This document shows, in pieces, positions 13,445-60,490 of a DNA stretch of 64,000 nucleotides. Source of the DNA: Octopus vulgaris. Taxonomy: Eukaryota. Location: positions 64,976,001 through 65,040,000 of the forward strand of contig OX597827.1 of the NCBI GenBank assembly GCA_951406725.2. Reading direction: 5' to 3'. Under the pieces are notes generated by a model. It ran no database searches. It had not been told where the DNA came from and saw only the letters and a list, made by a program, of their open reading frames with translations. The position numbers and the translations under genes are program-made. Each line of letters starts with the position of its first letter. Position 1 is the first letter of the stretch.

Positions 13445-15080
13445 ATAATGGTTTCAAATTTAGGCACAAGGCCAGCAATTTCAGGAGAGTGGCTAAGTCG
13501 ATTACATCGATCCCAGTACTCTACTCGTACTCATGTAATCGACGCCGAAAGGATGAAAAACAAGTTCGACTTCAGCAGAATTTGAATTCAGAACGTAGAA
13601 ACGGACGAAATACTGCTCTGCATTCTTCACAGTGTCCTAAGGTCCTGCCAGCACACTGCTCTTGGTGATTTCAAAGTTCAGTACACGTTTAGCAGTTTCA
13701 AGAAAGGGGTTAAGTCGATTATATCGACGCCAGTGCTCGACTGGTACTTATTTTATCGAGCCCCAAAAGGGATGAAAAACAAAGTCGACCTCCACGGAAA
13801 TTGAACTCAGAACATAAAGACAGACGATATACTGCAGCTGATTCTTTTCTACTCTAGAAAGAAAGCCTGAAATTTTGGGGGCGGGTGCCAGTCGATTAGA
13901 TCGATTCCAGTATGCAACTCGTACTTAATTTATCGATAGCGAGAGGGTAAAAGGCAAAGTCGACCTCAGCGGAAATTGAAATCAGAACGTAAAGACAAAC
14001 GAAATACCTATTTCTTTACTACCTTCAAGGGGCTAAACACTGAAGGGACAAAGAAGGACAGACAAACGGATTAAGTCGATTATATCGACCCCAGTGCGTA
14101 ACTGATACTTATTTAATCGACCCCAAAAGGATGAAAGGCAAAGTCGACCTCGGAGGAATTTGAACTCAGAACGTAACGGCAGACGAAATACGGTTACGCA
14201 TTTCGCCTGGCGTGCTAACGATTTCACCAGACGTGTTAAGCATTTCACCAGCCGTGGAAGTGATTTCTACTCTAGGTACAAGACCCGAACATTTCGGAAC
14301 TGTGGAGAGGTACAGTCAATTAGATCTACCACGGTACGCAACTGGTACTTAATTTATCTTCCCGACAGGATGAAACGCAAAGTCGACCTCGGCGGAAATT
14401 GAACTCAGAACATAAAGGCAGACAAAATACCTATTTCTTTACTACCCACAAGGAGCTAAACACAGCGAGGACAAACAAGGACAGACAAACGGATTAAGTC
14501 AGTTATATCGTCCCCAGTGCGTAACTGGTACTTATTTAATCGACCCAGAAAGGATGAAAGCCAAAGTCAACCACGGCGGAATTTGAACTTAGAACGTAGC
14601 GGCAGACGAAATACCTATTTCTTTACTACCCACAAAGGGGCTAAACACAGAGGGGACAAACAAGGACAGACATAGGTATTAAGTCGATTACATCGACCCC
14701 AGTGCGTAACTGGTACTTAATTTATCGACCCCGAAAGGATGAAAGGCAAAGTCGACCTCGGCGGAATTTGAACTCACAACGTAACGCAGACGAAATAACG
14801 CTAAGCATTTCGCCCGACTTACTAACGTTTCTGCCAGCTCGCCGCCTTCATTATTTCTTTATTACCCACAAGGGGCTAAACATAGAGGGAACAAACAAGG
14901 ACAGACATAGGTATTAAGTCGATTACATCGACCCCAGTGCGTAACTGGTACTTAATTTATCGACCCCGAAAGGATGAAAGGTAAAGTCGACCTCGGCGGA
15001 ATTTGAACTTAGAACGTAGCGGCAGACGAAATACCACTAAGCATTTAGCACGGTGTGCTAACGATTCTGCCAGCTCGCTG
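13445..15080 (-). mobile_element. Array of about 8 family T SINE units
   Basis: B-box/gtcgacctcggcggaatttgaactcag motif recurs near 13580, 13800, 13975, 14158, 14398, 14580, 14765 and 15000. Confidence 0.92.
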
Positions 15081-16841: not shown

Positions 16842-16926
<85 letters not shown>

Positions 16927-16984
16927 CCATTATAATTTATGCGTCTCGAAACAAGCCGAAAGAGATTTCTAAAAAATTCCGTTA

Positions 16985-17045
16985 TTACCGTATTGGTCAC
17001 AATTTCAGAGTTAATTCGTAAGAATTTTCCCCTCCCCAGCGATAA
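16985..17045 (-). ncRNA. Hammerhead copy with core mutation (CUGGGGA)
   Basis: UUAUCG-CUGGGGA-GGGG..CUCU-GAAA-UUG-UGAC-CAA-UA-CGGUAA. Confidence 0.65.
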
Positions 17046-17453
17046 ATACGTAAGACATAAATGAAATACTTACTCATACTCATGGAAAAAGCATGCACTA
17101 AGCCCTGAGCAGACCTAACTACCCCAAATATATCCAAAATAGAAAATCTTTAGCACATTTCGAGACACATGTGTGATTCGAACTAGAAACTTTCACAGAG
17201 TGAGAGAGTCCGAAAGTAAGCACTATTAAATTTACATCTAATGTAGGATAACATTTTTTTCGAAAACAAATTTTATCAATGGCCAGCATATTAAAAAATA
17301 CAATTAAAGGTTAAATTTATAAATAACTTATAAAATAAGGGCAAAAGAAAATTTCTAATGCCAAATATGCCGAAAATAGACAAAATGGTCAATAACTATT
17401 ATAATTCCTGCGTCTCGAAACAAGCCGAAAGAGATTTCTAAAAAATTCCGTTA

Positions 17454-17514
17454 TTATCGTATTGGTTCCAATTTCAGAGTTAGTTCATAAGAATTTTCCC
17501 CTCCTCAGCGATAA
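17454..17514 (-). ncRNA. Type I hammerhead ribozyme, complete core
   Basis: UUAUCG-CUGAGGA-GGGG[loop]CUCU-GAAA-UUGGAACCAA-UA-CGAUAA: perfect 6-bp stem I, AUA cleavage site. Confidence 0.8.
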
Positions 17515-17813
17515 ATACGTAAGACATAAATGAAATACTTACTCATACTTATGGAAAAAGCAAGCACTAAGTCCTGAGCAGACCTAAGTACCCCAAATAT
17601 GTCCAAAATAGAAAATCTTCAGCACATCTCGAGACACGTGTGATTCGAACAAGAAACAATTGACAATTTTGTCTATTTTGGGCATATTTTGCATAAAAAA
17701 AATTTTTTGCCCTTATTTTATAAGTTATTAATAAATTTAACCTTTAAAAGTATTTTTTAATATGCCGTCATTGATAAAATTCTTTTTCGAAAAAAATGTT
17801 ATCCTACATTAGA

Positions 17814-17866
<53 letters not shown>

Positions 17867-22434: not shown

Positions 22435-23600
22435 GGACAGGCTGAAAAGTTTATAGGCTAACTTTGAAGGAGTGATGCCAGGGTTTCAAAATGCTGCATG
22501 CATTAATTCCAACTGTCCCTATTAATAACTGTATCGTTTCTTTCCAGGTAAACTAGGTATGTTTGCATCTGGGATTATAGCATCCGTTCGCTGGTCTAAA
22601 ACAAGAACTCCAAGGACGTAACGAGTTTCAAACAGGCGCAATTTTCTAAATGTTTTTCTTGCAATTACGAAAATGGGCTGAAATATTTATAGGCGAACTG
22701 GCAGACACATTAGCACGCCGGGCGAAGTGCTTAGCGGTATTTCGTCTGCTGCTACGTTCTGAGTTCAAATACCGCCGAGGTCGACTTTGACTTTCATCCT
22801 TTCGGGGTCGATTAAATAAGTACTAGTTACGCCCTGTGGTCGATATAATCGACTTAATCCGTTAGTCCGACCTTGTTTGTCCTCTCTGTGTTTAGCCCCT
22901 TGTGGGTAGTAAAGAAATAGGTATTTCGTCTCCCGTTACGTTCTGAGTTCAAATTCCGCCGAGGTCGACTTTGCCTTTCATGTTTTCGAGGTCGATAAAT
23001 TAAGTACCAGTTACGGACTGGGGTCGATGTAATCGACTTAATTCCTTTATCTGTCCTTGTTTGTCCTCTCTGTGTTTAGCCCCTTGTTGGTAGGAAAGGA
23101 ATAGGTATTTCGTTTGCTGCTACGTTCTGAGTTCAAATTCCGCCGAGGTGGACTTTGCCGTTTATCCTTTCGGGGTCGATAAATTAAGTACCAGTTACGG
23201 ACTGGGGTAGATGTAATTGACTTAATCTGTTTGTCTGTCCTTGTTTGTCCCCTCTATGTTTTGCCCCTTGTGGGCAATAAAGAATTAAGAAATATTTATA
23301 GGCTGATTATTAAGGAGCTATGCTAGAGCTCTGAAATCTTGCCTGAACTAATTACACTTTTTAATAATTGTATTGTTTCTCTTTAGTTAAACTTTATCTA
23401 ATTGTTCATCGACACTTGTAAATAACTAGTAGCAGATTCTCTTGAAAATGGACAAAATTTGGCATTGCGATGTTATGAAGAACCCGCCGAAAGAGGATAT
23501 TCATGCAAATATACTATGCTTGCTACATACGAGGATTACGCTCCAGCTTTATCAATAGTACAAAAGTGGACAGATGAATTTTGGTGGAGAGATTATCGCA
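22435..23600 (+). mobile_element. Decayed mariner 5' region interrupted by a SINE
   Basis: End-like motif g.gctgaaa..tttataggc occurs twice. From ~23448 the translation MDKIWHCDVM...DIHA...ATYEDYAPALSIVQKWTDEF resembles a mariner N-terminal HTH. Confidence 0.65.
22692..23290 (+). mobile_element. Family T SINE trimer with target-site duplication
   Basis: Three units; gaaatatttataggc at 22680-22694 and 23289-23303. Confidence 0.92.
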
Positions 23601-44327: not shown

Positions 44328-44750
44328 GGCGAAGAAGTGGGTGTGTGGTAAGTAGCTTGCTAAACAACCACATGGTTCCGGGTTCAGTCCCACTGCGTGG
44401 CATCTTGGGCAAGTGTCTTCTGCTATAGCCCCGGGCCGACCAATGTCTTGTGAGTGGATTTGGTAGACAGAAACTGAAAGAAGCCTGTCGTATATATGTG
44501 TATATATATATATATATGTATGTATGTGTGTGTGTTTGTGTATCTGTGTTTGTCCCCCTAGCATTGCTTGACAACCGATGCTGGTGTGCTTACGTCCTCG
44601 TCACTTAGCGGTTCAGCAAAAGAGACTGATAGAATAAGTTCTGGGCTTACAAATAATAAGTCCCGGGGTCGATTTGCTCGACTAATGGCGGTGCTCCAGC
44701 ATGGCCGCAGTCAAATGACTGAAAGAAGTATAAGAGTAAAAAGTAAAAGA
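44328..44750 (+). mobile_element. Full-length family C SINE
   Basis: B box GGTTCAGTCCC, CORE-like cttgggcaagtgtctt motif and tail ggcggtgctccagcatggccgcagtcaaatgactgaaa. An extra tail fragment lies at ~45021-45130. Confidence 0.92.
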
Positions 44751-45174
44751 ATATATGATATGAACATGTGTGTGTGAGAGTGTATCTGTCTGTATGTGTT
44801 TCTGTATGCGCATATGTGTGACTATTGGTGTGTAGATATATAGAAATATTTTGTAAATGGTGAGTCAAATGATATATGAGAAAAATGTGCTGACCCAAAA
44901 GAGATACAAGTAACATTTAAAATTTGGCTTTGCGCATACTCTCACGCACGCGAACACACACACACATATTCACATATGCACACAAGCAAACACACACAAC
45001 ATACACAGACACACACGCACGATAGAATAAGTACTAGACTTACAATGAATAAGTCCTGGGGTAGATTTTCTCTACTAAAGGTGGTGCTCCAGCATGGCTT
45101 CAGTCAAATGACAGCAACATGTAAAAGAATAAAATAATAAAAGAATATATATATATATATATATATGTTATTAT

Positions 45175-45862
45175 TTTATATTATATTGAGGGCACTACTA
45201 TTCGTAGATACCAACACGCTAAGAGGGACCAATGCGGTCAAAACTACTAAAAATAAACAAAATTTTACCGAATGCAAAACTTCAAAACACATCATTTTAA
45301 AAAAGAATTCAGTTACATATCACATGTGATTTCGCATTTAAATGCAGAATATGCATTTTATGTTCATCAGTGCAACAAACTCAAGAAATATAAGAGAAAA
45401 ACATAACATTACAAGCTCGATAGCCAACCGTAGAATTCGTCGTAGCATGTCCGAATGTTTATCTTTACATATCTATGAAAATGGCGGGCTTATTCGCAAT
45501 GCATTTCGGTACCAAATTGTCTATTCGGAATAAAAATTCAGTATTGAACTATTCCGGTGAAAAATATAAATTAACAATTGAGGATAACATCTTTAAAAGA
45601 AATTATCAGTAGTCAGCGTGAAAAACCTCGTAAGAGAAAAAATCCGTAAATTCTTCCTCTTTGAAAATATTCATTTATATTATATTGAGGGCACTACTAT
45701 TCGTAGATACCAACACGCTAAGAGGGACCAATTCGGTCAAAACTACTAAAAATAAACAACATTTTACCGAATGCAAAACTTCAAAACACATCATTTTAAA
45801 AAAGAATTCAGTTACATATCACATGTGATTTCGCATTTAAATGCAGAATATGCATTTTATGC
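45175..45862 (-). mobile_element. Pseudo-LTR/retrozyme-like unit with 188-bp direct repeats, period 499
   Basis: 45175-45362 and 45674-45861 are nearly identical, between (TA)n-rich flanks; contains a hammerhead. Confidence 0.88.
45313..45375 (-). ncRNA. Type I hammerhead ribozyme, complete core
   Basis: UUGCA-CUGAUGA-ACAUAAAAUGCA-UAUUC-UGCAUUUAAAUGC-GAAA-UCACAUGUGA-UA-UGUAA, with the 12-nt palindrome AUCACAUGUGAU as stem III. Confidence 0.87.
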
Positions 45863-45947
45863 ATATTTATAAATTTATAAATTTATAAATTTATAAATTA
45901 TATATATATATGTATATATACATACATATCTCTATATAAATACATAC

Positions 45948-45982
<35 letters not shown>

Positions 45983-45988
45983 CATACA

Positions 45989-46043
<55 letters not shown>

Positions 46044-46084
46044 ATATATATATATGTATATCATGTGTATCTGTCTATCCATCC

Positions 46085-46126
<42 letters not shown>

Positions 46127-46130
<4 letters not shown>

Positions 46131-48957: not shown

Positions 48958-49904
48958 TTCTTCGATCTTCTGTGATGCGATCTTTGCAGTGTGGGGTCAC
49001 GCATTGTCCTGATGAAACATTACTCCTTTTCGATTCACTAAAGCGGGTCTTTTTTTCTTCAATGCTTGGAACAAACGCTCTAATTGCTGACTGTAGACTT
49101 GATCATTGATTGTTGCATTAGGTGGTAACAATTCAAAGTGAATTACTCCTTTGCAATCACAGCAAATAGAGAGAAGAATCTTTTCCCCATGAAGTTCCCT
49201 TCTCGGTTGTGGTTGAGCTTTGTTCCTTTTACCAATCCACTGTTTACGACGTTTAACACCTCGATAAAAGATCCATTTTTCGTCACCAGTCACATGTCTA
49301 TCCAAAAAGAGTGAAATGATTTCGCGAGAACGGAGAGAAGAGCAGATGTCAACTCGGAATTTGCAGTTGCTTTCGTACAATTCATGAAGCACCGAATTTC
49401 CAAATTTAGGAACCTTTCCAAGTTGTTGAAGAAGAAGATTAACAGTTGTATGGTTTGAACGAAGCTTTATTGTCAATTCTTCAACTGACAATGCATGATT
49501 TTCTTCTAGTATTGCCCTCAAGGATCATATCATCAAACTCAACAGGACGTCCTGTTCGATCTTCATCTTCAGGGATGATATATCCACTTCTGAATTTTGC
49601 AAACGATCTACTGAAACTTCTTTCATTGAAACAGTATTTCCCATAAACTGAGTGTATGTTTCGAGGCGCTTCGGCTGTTGTACTCATAAAACATTATGTG
49701 CCTCAAATGCTCTTCGGATATTTCTATGTTGAAAAGATTTTTAATCAAAGTAATTTTAATTCTATTATTCTGTAAAATAATACTTAATTAGTTAAATGTA
49801 CACAAACCTATACAAATAATTTTCAATTCCATTAGACATTCTAAAATACCATTAAATTTCATTCAGTTTAATAAATCTGAAATCGGACAGAATTTATGGG
49901 ATGA

Positions 49905-56699: not shown

Positions 56700-57115
56700 T
56701 TTCTTTTTTTATTGCCCATAAGGTGCTGAACATAGAAGGTCAAACAAGGACAAATAAGGGGTTTAAATCGCTTACATCGACCCCAGTGTGTAACTGGTAC
56801 TTCTTCAATCGACCTTAAAAGGATGAAAGGCAAAGTCGACCTTGGCGGAATTTGAACTCAGAACGTAACAGCAGACGAAATACCTATTTCTTTATTACCC
56901 TCAAGGGGCTAAACACAGATCGGACAAACAAGGACAGACATAGGTATTAAGTCGATTACATCGACCCCAGTGCGTAACTGGTACTTAATTTATCGACCTC
57001 GAAAGGATGAAAGGCAAAGTCGACCTCGGCGGAATTTGAACTCACAACGTAAAGCAGACGAAATACCACCAAGCATTTCACCTGGCATGCTAACGATTCT
57101 GCCAGCTCACCGCCC
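56700..57115 (-). mobile_element. Family T SINE dimer with 16-bp TSD
   Basis: ttaatattggataata at 56684-56699 and 57116-57131. Confidence 0.92.
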
Positions 57116-58607: not shown

Positions 58608-59900
58608 CTCTCTTTTCACTCGTATTGAAGTATTTCTTTTAAATTTTGGTTTTCCTCTTTCATTCCACGTGTATCTTCTAGTTATTAGTTCATCCTGATA
58701 TATCTATTTCCCGCAGTAATTTCTTTATTGAAACTACACATTTATAATAGAAAAGGTCGTTAATAAATTATTATGTTTTTCTTTATACGCAGTGGGGAGC
58801 TTCTTTCTCGAACATTCCTTCTTTTGATTTGATGGATTACGTTTCTTGTCTCTTACAACACATTTTCATTACATACTTTCATAAATCTACCTTGCCGAAG
58901 GTCAGATACCTTACGCTAAGCAACTAACATACTTAAATGTCTTTAAGCTTTTCTTTCCCTCTCTCTTTCCTTTATTCTTTCCACTTTAGTCCTTTCTTTC
59001 TTTGACTGCCTTGATTTTAATGCATCTCATCACTATATTTTCACACCTTCATAAGGCTTCGTACTGTTTCCTCACCTTCATAACGCTTCGTACCATTTTC
59101 TCACCTTCATAACGCATCGTGCCATCTTCACTTCGCTTACTTCATCACCTACATTCTCATTTTCTCCCGTCTTCACTTTATATATTTATGCTTAACCAAT
59201 ACAATTACATCTGCCAGCTCTTTCCTCACTTTTCTCTATCTGCGACTTATATTTCCTAGAATGACCTCTCGTTTACTCATAATCTCACACTTTATCTAAT
59301 TTCTAGACACAAAAATTTATTATGAATATTATACCCATCCTTTCGCATTCGCTAATTTACCCTTCTGGAGAAAATATTTCGATGCTGCTCGCATAAACTT
59401 AATCATAAGTTGAAAAACTATTTGAATATATGATTTTCGGGATATTGCCTCATAATGTTCACCTCTTCCTTAGACTTGCAATTGTTTCGTGCAACATCTA
59501 TATTCCTTCCCATGCCTGTCATCACTTATGTGCCTGCCGTAAGGCTTCACTTCCACACATGCTAGCTTAATCTAATTCCTCCTTAGTCGAAAGACACCTA
59601 TTATTAATGTCCTGTTGTTTGCATTTGTAGTTGTGTACCATTTCTCCGTTTTTTTTTCTTCCTTGTTTTCGTATACCTTCGCTGCTTACTTCCAATGAAT
59701 CTAGAGGTTTTAGCCTAAATCTTCCTTGGGGCCAGCCAGATTGGAGCACTCTCGAGTTTAACAAGCCGAAACTACAAAGATAATCTGGAACTCGACTGAC
59801 GGAAGAAAAATCCGAATGACCCGTCCTGGCTTTTTTTTTGTCACTTTTTTGTATCGTCTAACTATCTGGATGTTTTCGTTCCTGTCCCACTTTCTGTAAT

Positions 59901-59976
<76 letters not shown>

Positions 59977-59982
59977 AGCATG

Positions 59983-60490
59983 CAGGGGTTGGAAAAATAA
60001 TGGGAACACTTTAAAATTTCAAACAAATGTATTTTAATATTGGATAGGAGAAATTTGGAAGTAATTACAGCTTGAATTCTACGAGGTATGGACTCGTACA
60101 AAGTTTGAATTGTTCCTAAAGGAATTTGTATCAATTCTTCAGCTAAAACAGTCTCCAGGTTTTGTAGTGATGATGGTGGAGGATATCGACTCCTTACTCG
60201 TTTTTCTAAAATACACCATAAATGTTCAATAATATCAAGATCTGTAGACTGTGGTGGCCAGATAAGATGTTCAACTTGACTAGAATGTTCCTCGTGCCAT
60301 TCAGTAACAACTTTAGCTGTGTGAATTGGTGCATTATCATCCTAAATGATTCCGTTTCTATATCAAGATCTGTGGACTGTGGTGGCCAGATAAGATGTTC
60401 AACTTGACTAGAATGTTCCTCGTGCCATTCAGTAACAACTTTAGCTGTGTGAATTGGTGCATTATCATCCTAAAAGATTGCGTTTCTATA
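59983..60490 (-). mobile_element. Tc1-like transposon 3' remnant with an internal 128-bp tandem duplication
   Basis: *DDNAPIHTAKVVTEWHEEHSSQVEHLIWPPQSTDLDIIEHLWCILEKRV...LYESIPRRIQAVI. TIR-like caggggttggaaaaataatgggaacac. Confidence 0.9.

What the first reader, a model, noticed from the sequence alone, without database searches (positions are those of the whole stretch)
45175..45862. Recent 499-bp-period element whose second hammerhead is truncated mid-ribozyme
The 188-bp direct repeats differ at only a few positions. Copy 1 has a full hammerhead with an A-C mismatch at the base of stem II. Copy 2 has the canonical G-C pair but stops just before CUGAUGA. The roughly 1.4-unit structure fits reverse transcription of a circular or tandem ~499-nt RNA (inference).
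Basis: partly seen in the sequence, partly recalled or inferred. Interest (0 to 1): 0.7.

Follow-up and report, generated by a model that had tools for sequence, protein, structure and literature searches.

The report
Young Penelope-mobilised hammerhead retrozyme copy
This is one 5'-truncated copy of a young, non-coding 499-base repeat that carries a predicted self-cutting RNA motif and sits in TA microsatellites at hundreds of places in this animal genome; it belongs to a known class (retrozymes) and is likely pasted by a borrowed Penelope-type reverse transcriptase, probably from a small RNA circle.

Summary
The repeat is real. It lies on the minus strand: 687 nt, 1.38 units of 499 bp, two 188-bp repeats differing at 2 positions, one complete type I hammerhead with an A·C at the base of stem II.

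The 'canonical G-C' of the other repeat is not a ribozyme variant. That G is the first base outside the element, made by a short fold-back at the 5' truncation point. A·C is the family state (72 of 73 young copies).

The family has several hundred dispersed copies in (TA)n and no attached ORF in any locus examined. Its ends look like Penelope-type insertions: 115 of 126 arms end at one of two fixed sites, and back-to-back arms pair one site with the other (31 of 36, never the same site twice). Copies read through the ribozyme cut site without stopping, and repeats within one insertion share private variants. This favours a circular or re-copied monomer over a cut linear RNA; an uncut multimer is not excluded. 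No autonomous parent was found.

It is a new member of the known animal non-LTR retrozymes. This scan has already noted what appears to be the same family in this genome (e1-8672319).

The parts
45175..45861 (-). Whole insertion, single arm, 687 nt = unit positions 312-499 followed by 1-499 (unit position u = window 45674-u)
45175..45673 (-). One full 499-nt unit, non-coding (longest stop-to-stop frame overlapping the insertion 64 aa), 32% G+C
45674..45861 (-). 5'-truncated upstream repeat (unit 312-499); 2 differences from the downstream repeat (45733/45234, 45760/45261)
45312..45376 (-). Complete type I hammerhead: stem I 45376-45371 with 45317-45312; CUGAUGA 45370-45364; A10.1·C11.1 at 45363/45334; long stem II; GAAA 45333-45330; palindromic stem III 45330-45319; predicted cut 45318/45317
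   Evidence: sequence; covariation; cleavage not tested
45811..45861 (-). Hammerhead remnant lacking CUGAUGA and the 5' strand of stem I
45847..45867 (.). 9-bp perfect fold-back (3-nt loop) at the 5' junction; it supplies the apparent G10.1 at 45862
45175..45177 (-). Fixed 3' end A (unit 494-499), inferred reverse-transcription start used by this copy; 61 of 126 family arms end here
45564..45567 (-). Fixed 3' end B (unit about 107-110), internal in this copy; 54 of 126 family arms end at unit 101-114
45191..45212 (-). Covarying hairpin just 5' of end A (second copy 45690-45711); predicted recognition element
   Evidence: 3 of 8 pairs change on both sides in 20 relatives
45608..45747 (-). Predicted long-range helix (45747-45741 with 45614-45608) that spans the unit boundary and encloses end A; conserved, one-sided changes only
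45145..45166 (.). (TA)n tract at the 3' end, the inferred target
   Evidence: 133 of 140 family flanks have (TA)4 within 45 nt
45868..46127 (.). Reiterated 8-nt AT palindrome followed by a TA/TATC microsatellite at the 5' side

Best explanation
This is a 5'-truncated copy of a young, non-coding 499-nt hammerhead repeat dispersed in (TA)n tracts, likely inserted by the reverse transcriptase-endonuclease of an autonomous Penelope-like element (PLE) acting in trans, and probably copied from a circular monomer RNA. SHOWN: dispersed copies, two fixed 3' ends, random 5' ends, inverted second arms, TA flanks, no ORF, a conserved and covarying hammerhead. INFERRED steps: (1) The few copies with two complete hammerheads in tandem are transcribed, cut as a dimer through the palindromic stem III, and the monomer is ligated into a ~499-nt circle. 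(2) A PLE protein binds the structured region 143-253 nt downstream of the cut site. (3) It nicks (TA)n and primes cDNA internally at site A on one DNA end and at site B on the other. (4) Each cDNA runs round the template and stops at random, about 0.35 stops per 100 nt. (5) The cDNA ends join each other (two-armed insertion) or the target (single arm, as here, after a short fold-back). This copy has one complete hammerhead and could not excise a monomer by itself. The class assignment is about 0.9 likely; the circle step about 0.55.
For: Copy number: exact motif counts of 468 (A core), 222 (G core), 525 (young 3' motif) and 1601 (motif shared across lineages), with reversed-pattern controls of 0-4. 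Ends: in 71 insertions taken in genome order, 115 of 126 arms end at unit 494-499 or 101-114, and 42 of 71 hold both orientations. Of 36 clean two-arm insertions, 31 pair A with B, 5 involve another end, and none is A+A or B+B. This matches the two internal start sites and 'tail' shown in vitro for the anole PLE (PMC11167929) and the inverted arm with a tail at one end described for PLEs (PMC8557442). A young autonomous PLE (781 aa, RT + GIY-YIG) in this genome leaves the same footprint in (TA)n: 23 of 29 pLTR ends at one site and 4 at a site 35 nt further. No run-off at the cut site: 72 of 115 arms reach it, 69 are still going 12 nt beyond it, and 9 pass it twice, so a cut linear monomer is not the template. 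Repeats within one insertion share 14 variants seen in no other of 102 insertions (11 of 66 direct pairs; about 0.03 expected by independent mutation, my arithmetic). The window copy has one such variant (45193/45692). CUGANGA is intact in 19 of 19 copies under 88% identical that were not picked by core letters, while N7 and H17 vary as a hammerhead allows. 5 of 71 insertions have two complete cores in tandem.
Against: No autonomous element sharing this unit was found. There is no homology to the termini of about six PLE families in 103 PLE-containing loci, so the enzyme is inferred from footprints only; the GIY-YIG search scored 150 of 6136 candidates. In the anole system, hammerhead-dead mutants insert normally and unprocessed RNA is the main substrate. 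The young, most numerous lineage carries A·C instead of the G10.1-C11.1 pair called highly conserved in PLE hammerheads, and this pair is standard in only 12 of 24 family variants, so cleavage may be weak. Shared private variants could also come from gene conversion between adjacent repeats or from unsampled tandem sources; I sampled 102 of several hundred insertions. Only 1 of 9 Xenopus retrozyme dimers cleaved in vitro. Cleavage, circles and the enzyme were not tested here.
Confidence: 0.6

Rival explanations
1. Same PLE-driven insertion, but the template is an uncut multi-unit linear transcript of tandem copies. The hammerhead is a weak or protein-dependent regulator, and unit number is regenerated by template jumping, insertion next to older copies, or gene conversion.
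For: Anole PLE: hammerhead cleavage not needed, unprocessed RNA dominant. The A·C mismatch is fixed in the young lineage (72 of 73). No run-off at the cut site fits this model too. The longest arm seen, 1213 nt, is only 2.4 units.
Against: Linear sources shorten with each round (constant stop rate), yet the ~470-500-nt period persists down to about 70% identity. Both repeats share private variants. The core is intact in 19 of 19 old copies. The only pile-up of 5' ends is at unit 1-3 (8 stops), which merges with the TA target and partly reflects how I chained alignments.
Confidence: 0.3
2. Ordinary truncated pseudo-LTRs of an autonomous Penelope element that I did not find.
For: Ends, tail, inversions and TA targeting are those of PLE insertions. 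8 of 71 loci have PLE-protein matches nearby. The search for PLE proteins was not exhaustive.
Against: Arms wrap from unit 1 to unit 499 with no ORF between, up to 2.4 units. Nearby PLE fragments belong to several unrelated families and lie beyond a TA tract or an inverted arm. Old lineages have the same ORF-free period.
Confidence: 0.06
3. Satellite-like repeat spread at DNA level (unequal crossing-over or DNA rolling circle), with a passenger hammerhead.
For: Li et al. discuss local tandem expansion of retrozymes.
Against: Copies are dispersed, mostly under two units, with two fixed 3' ends, random 5' ends, coupled inverted arms and TA flanks.
Confidence: 0.03

Closest known systems
Animal non-LTR retrozymes (Cervera and de la Pena 2020, PMC7229834: passages plus sections 14 and 17 read; Li, Clavereau and Pollet 2026, bioRxiv 10.64898/2026.07.22.740005: parts 1-3 of 5 read)
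   Same: Non-coding, low-GC tandem unit with a type I hammerhead and palindromic stem III; dispersed monomers and dimers; coexists with autonomous PLEs; unit within the 51-972 bp range of Li et al.
   Different: Circles were shown by northern blot in coral, mussel and salamander, not here. Most copies here are truncated or two-armed rather than clean tandem arrays. The stem II closing pair is often non-canonical. No PLE terminal repeat homologous to the unit was found, unlike many Xenopus families.
Penelope-like element insertions, Poseidon of Anolis carolinensis (Frangieh et al. 2024, PMC11167929: parts 1-2 of 4 read) and the PLE anatomy in Craig et al. 2021 (PMC8557442: passages)
   Same: Two fixed internal start sites downstream of the hammerhead, AT-rich or (TA)n target, both DNA strands extended, inverted 5' arm, tail at one end only.
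   Different: No ORF. The tail is about 110 nt instead of 30-40 nt. The unit repeats directly on itself.
Non-autonomous Chlamys PLEs such as MRC1 (PMC8557442, passage)
   Same: Non-coding, head-to-tail multi-copy insertions mobilised by a PLE.
   Different: Those generally resemble an autonomous family at the 3' end and lack canonical hammerheads; this one has a hammerhead and no identified parent.
PLE hammerheads (Cervera and de la Pena 2014, PMC4209133: passages)
   Same: Type I, long helix II, small palindromic helix III, predicted to work as a dimer, low activity expected.
   Different: G10.1-C11.1 is described as highly conserved there; here it is A·C in the young lineage and G-C, G·U, A-U, U·U, C·U or U·C in older ones.

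Membership tests
Type I hammerhead ribozyme | Core CUGANGA, GAAA and NUH triplet | tested here: met
   Window copy. Core intact in 19 of 19 old and 69 of 73 young copies; H17 is A, C or U, never G.
Type I hammerhead ribozyme | Three helices around the core, open stem I | tested here: met
   91.9% of cells paired, 5 pairs change on both sides, slid controls 15-43%. No Rfam model matched.
Type I hammerhead ribozyme | G10.1-C11.1 closing pair (conserved, not strictly defining) | tested here: not met
   A·C in the window copy, in 44 of 44 cores in the first 30 loci and in 72 of 73 young copies; G-C in an older subfamily.
Type I hammerhead ribozyme | Self-cleavage | not testable with these tools
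   Needs in vitro transcription.
Animal non-LTR retrozyme | Short non-coding tandem unit, low GC, no LTR, PBS or PPT architecture | tested here: met
   499 nt, 32% GC, no ORF. PBS and PPT were not searched for; arms are permuted repeats of one unit.
Animal non-LTR retrozyme | [quoted passage not shown] | tested here: met
   Met by the family (5 of 71 insertions). Not met by this copy, which has one.
Animal non-LTR retrozyme | Multiple dispersed genomic copies and coexistence with autonomous PLEs | tested here: met
Animal non-LTR retrozyme | Expressed as monomeric circular RNA | tested here: inconclusive
   Only assembled contigs of runs not on record as RNA were available; they cannot tell a circle from a tandem repeat.
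Non-autonomous Penelope-like element | PLE insertion anatomy: partial tandem, inverted 5' arm, tail from two start sites, microsatellite target | tested here: met
Non-autonomous Penelope-like element | Sequence similarity to the terminal repeat of an autonomous PLE | tested here: inconclusive
   None found in 103 PLE-containing loci; search not exhaustive. Only a short resemblance at end B to the second end of the 781-aa family, judged by eye.
Autonomous Penelope-like element | RT + GIY-YIG ORF between the repeats | tested here: not met
   No PLE protein match in the window; no ORF inside or continuous with any arm examined.

The most novel reading that the evidence does not exclude
The family is a long-lived RNA-circle parasite of Penelope-like elements that is recognised by RNA structure alone, with no parent pLTR left in the genome. 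One dimeric enzyme copies one circle from two fixed sites at once, one for each cut DNA end. The ribozyme's stem II closing pair has switched from A·C to G-C and back to A·C along a single lineage; the weakened form may be favoured because it keeps the circle closed. The genome would then hold a direct record of circular RNA used as template for target-primed reverse transcription.
Probability: 0.35. Interest if true: 0.65.

Novelty: new member of a known kind. Interest (0 to 1): 0.36.

Why it matters
How animal retrozymes move is still a proposal: a PLE is suspected, and the circle as template has not been shown in the papers I read. This family gives exact predictions for a bench test: two start sites, a covarying hairpin beside one of them, a young candidate enzyme with intact ORFs in the same genome, and natural G-C and A·C ribozyme variants. 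The specific copy and its 'restored G' are ordinary: a random 5' truncation with a fold-back.

Tried and rejected
Rfam: no hammerhead model at gathering or E-value thresholds; the weak SNORD27 and mir-7957 rows (E 2.7 and 7.4) are chance.

RNA evidence: no RNA holder listed. I laid 8 of the 20 holding runs, all assembled contigs with RNA only guessed, and laid no silent control stretch. One 526-nt contig (X5) closes on itself with a 498-nt jump and another (X7) crosses the unit boundary, but tandem DNA gives the same graph, so I draw nothing from them.

Autonomous parent: locus L029/L051 puts a unit next to a decayed PLE ORF, but across a TA tract; L154, L132, L174, L267 and L269 are similar nestings with other PLE families. 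The weak profile hit in L295 (E 1.4e-4) is a separate non-coding piece beyond a TA tract. A 25-nt terminal motif had 0 matches in metagenome contigs.

A proposed pairing of the motif at unit ~454-460 with the motif at ~54-60 was not in the consensus fold, and I dropped it. One search used a mis-registered structure string and is void; one search is the correct one.

Short perfect fold-backs like this copy's are uncommon: 2 of 28 single-arm copies (the window copy was not in that set). The circular monomer folds better than 40 shuffles (z -3.7, crude shuffle); I give that little weight.

I found no paper giving the effect of an A10.1·C11.1 mismatch (search; PMC6257768 passages, place a metal site at A9/G10.1 only). 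That it lowers the rate is recalled, not checked. Literature searches for this family found no description of a cephalopod retrozyme, and the Octopus vulgaris repeat paper (PMC13282606, passages) has no occurrence of 'ribozyme'. Its library, Repbase and all supplements were not seen and may list the family.

Full report
OBSERVATION. The window is AT-rich, microsatellite-dense DNA from a 2.8-Gb animal genome; 'octopus-like' is my inference, not a tool label. Two direct repeats lie 499 bp apart, 45175-45362 and 45674-45861, and differ at 2 of 188 positions. The element reads on the minus strand. I number the unit from window 45673 (position 1) to 45175 (position 499), so the insertion is positions 312-499 followed by 1-499, 687 nt in all, between TA tracts. 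It has no ORF, and the window has no match to PLE proteins.

THE RIBOZYME. Positions 45376-45312 form a type I hammerhead with CUGAUGA, a long stem II, GAAA, a palindromic stem III and an AUA triplet; the predicted cut is at unit 356/357. Rfam does not detect it and it is not the single-sequence minimum fold, so I tested it on relatives. In 92 distinct copies not picked by core letters, the 19 that are under 88% identical all keep CUGANGA and 18 keep GAAA, while N7 varies (U, G, A) and H17 is A, C or U. Neighbouring positions are also well conserved, so the pattern of allowed variation counts for more than conservation alone. On 24 distinct variants, 91.9% of cells pair and five pairs change on both sides, among them C-G/U-A at 10.2-11.2 and A-U/G-C in upper stem II. 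Cleavage is not shown.

THE 'RESTORED G'. The two repeats are identical up to 45362/45861. It completes a perfect 9-bp fold-back (45847-45867) that explains six junction bases, followed by a reiterated AT palindrome and TA. A·C is the family state: 44 of 44 cores in the 30 best loci and 72 of 73 young copies. Real G-C versions exist in an older subfamily, about 80-91% identical, with other changes in stem II that this copy lacks; exact core counts are 468 A and 222 G. A FastTree tree of 46 of 101 distinct segments (all 27 old ones, every fourth young one; rooted on L066; supports not shown) is ladder-like: A·C copies at the base, then G-C, then A·C again, with one G-C copy sister to an A·C one. 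More distant relatives have G-C, G·U, A-U, U·U, C·U or U·C there. The closing pair is therefore loose in this family, although it is called highly conserved in PLE hammerheads (PMC4209133, passages).

THE FAMILY. A DNA search gave 1849 candidates; the 40 scored had near-full units at 98-100% identity on many contigs. A young 3' motif occurs 525 times and a motif shared across lineages 1601 times, with controls of 0. Older lineages, down to about 70% identity, have the same ORF-free period of roughly 470-500 nt. To avoid picking long copies, I took the first 100 motif hits in genome order, which are 71 insertions with 126 arms. Of these arms 61 end at unit 494-499 (end A), 54 at 101-114 (end B) and 11 elsewhere; 42 of 71 insertions hold both orientations. 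133 of 140 flanks have a TA tract, so target duplications cannot be read. Of 36 clean two-arm insertions 31 pair A with B, 5 involve another end, and none uses the same end twice. A covarying hairpin lies just before end A, and a conserved helix spans the unit boundary.

TEMPLATE. 5' ends fall at 0.25-0.42 per 100 nt everywhere except unit 1-3, where 8 stops reflect AT microhomology with the target and my chaining. Of 115 arms, 72 reach the cut site, 2 stop within positions 352-362, and 9 pass the site twice; the longest arm is 1213 nt. A cut linear monomer is thus not the template. Within one insertion, repeats differ at about 1.0% against 2.1% between insertions, and almost never at subfamily sites (3 in 9273 nt direct and 4 in 11464 nt inverted, against 0.76% between insertions). 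They share 14 variants found in no other of 102 insertions (11 of 66 direct pairs), and inverted arms share 14 as well (10 of 76 pairs, 8 loci, some counted twice). The window copy has such a variant in both repeats (45193 and 45692; 1 of 101 insertions covering that site). This is expected if one monomer was copied more than once, as on a circle. Gene conversion, template jumping or unsampled tandem sources could also give it. Five of 71 insertions have two complete hammerheads in tandem and could excise a monomer; this copy cannot.

ENZYME. The genome has a young autonomous PLE with a 781-aa RT + GIY-YIG ORF in many intact copies. Its ends lie in (TA)n at two sites 35 nt apart (23 and 4 of 29), the canonical tail. 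I found no PLE whose terminal repeat is homologous to the 499-nt unit, in 103 PLE-containing loci of about six families. PLE fragments beside some copies are separate insertions into the same TA tracts. The search covered a small part of the candidates, so a parent may remain unseen.

COMPARISON WITH WHAT IS KNOWN. Animal non-LTR retrozymes are non-coding tandem repeats with type I hammerheads, expressed as circles and proposed to be moved by PLEs (PMC7229834; bioRxiv 10.64898/2026.07.22.740005). The two fixed ends match the two internal start sites shown for the anole PLE, which extends both DNA strands and does not need hammerhead cleavage (PMC11167929). Inverted arms, a tail at one end only and non-autonomous PLE derivatives are described (PMC8557442). 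The element works like a non-autonomous PLE and fits the retrozyme definition on every sequence feature; the circular RNA is untested. My paper searches found no cephalopod retrozyme described, and supplements were not seen. Earlier notes of this scan describe what appears to be the same family (by unit size, target and two-armed pattern; I did not compare sequences) and similar families elsewhere. I had reached that reading before the look-up and measured the pattern myself.

AGE AND VERDICT. Two differences in 188 nt give about 0.5% per copy; on the octopus calibration quoted in PMC13282606 (distance 0.09 for 25 million years) that is of the order of 1-2 million years, with very wide error and only if the host is an octopus. 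This is a real, young, non-coding hammerhead retroelement of a known class. The family's value is as a well-defined test case for circle-templated, twin-primed PLE insertion. Interest 0.36.

Noticed in passing
window 16926-17815 (minus strand): A second, unrelated hammerhead-like repeat: period 469 bp, repeats 93% alike, core-like motif at 17508 and a decayed one near 17039, an inverted arm and TA flanks; a similar motif occurs in locus L042. Probably another retrozyme family with the same two-armed anatomy.
   Followed up: partly
L063:2310-2770 (G000:C31): Another tandem hammerhead repeat, period about 350 bp, in TA; a related core in L034.
   Followed up: no
L052:1430-6670 (G000:C16): Young autonomous PLE with a 359-aa upstream frame without Pfam match, a 781-aa RT + GIY-YIG ORF with a CxxC linker (Neptune-like, label inferred), and pLTRs whose hammerhead-like core reads UUGAUAA rather than CUGAUGA; 532 exact matches of a pLTR motif.
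   Followed up: partly
window 45868-45899; also L147 5' junction: Short units reiterated at the 5' junction (an 8-nt AT palindrome about four times here; a 9-nt template end repeated in L147), suggesting repeated re-copying by the reverse transcriptase before joining.
   Followed up: no
L295:2260-2485: Short two-armed non-coding insert that weakly matches the family's 3' profile (E 1.4e-4); possibly a very distant relative.
   Followed up: partly
window 14314-14797, 22736-23284, 56704-57067: Tandem arrays of a 184-185-bp unit, two to three copies each, of a common interspersed repeat.
   Followed up: no
window 48997-49524 and 59862-60341 (minus strand): Frames resembling Tc1/mariner transposase fragments (resemblance recalled, not searched).
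   Followed up: no
window 44628-44741 and 45021-45134: Two 83%-alike copies of a SINE-like repeat immediately left of the insertion; the TA target is the tail of the second.
   Followed up: no
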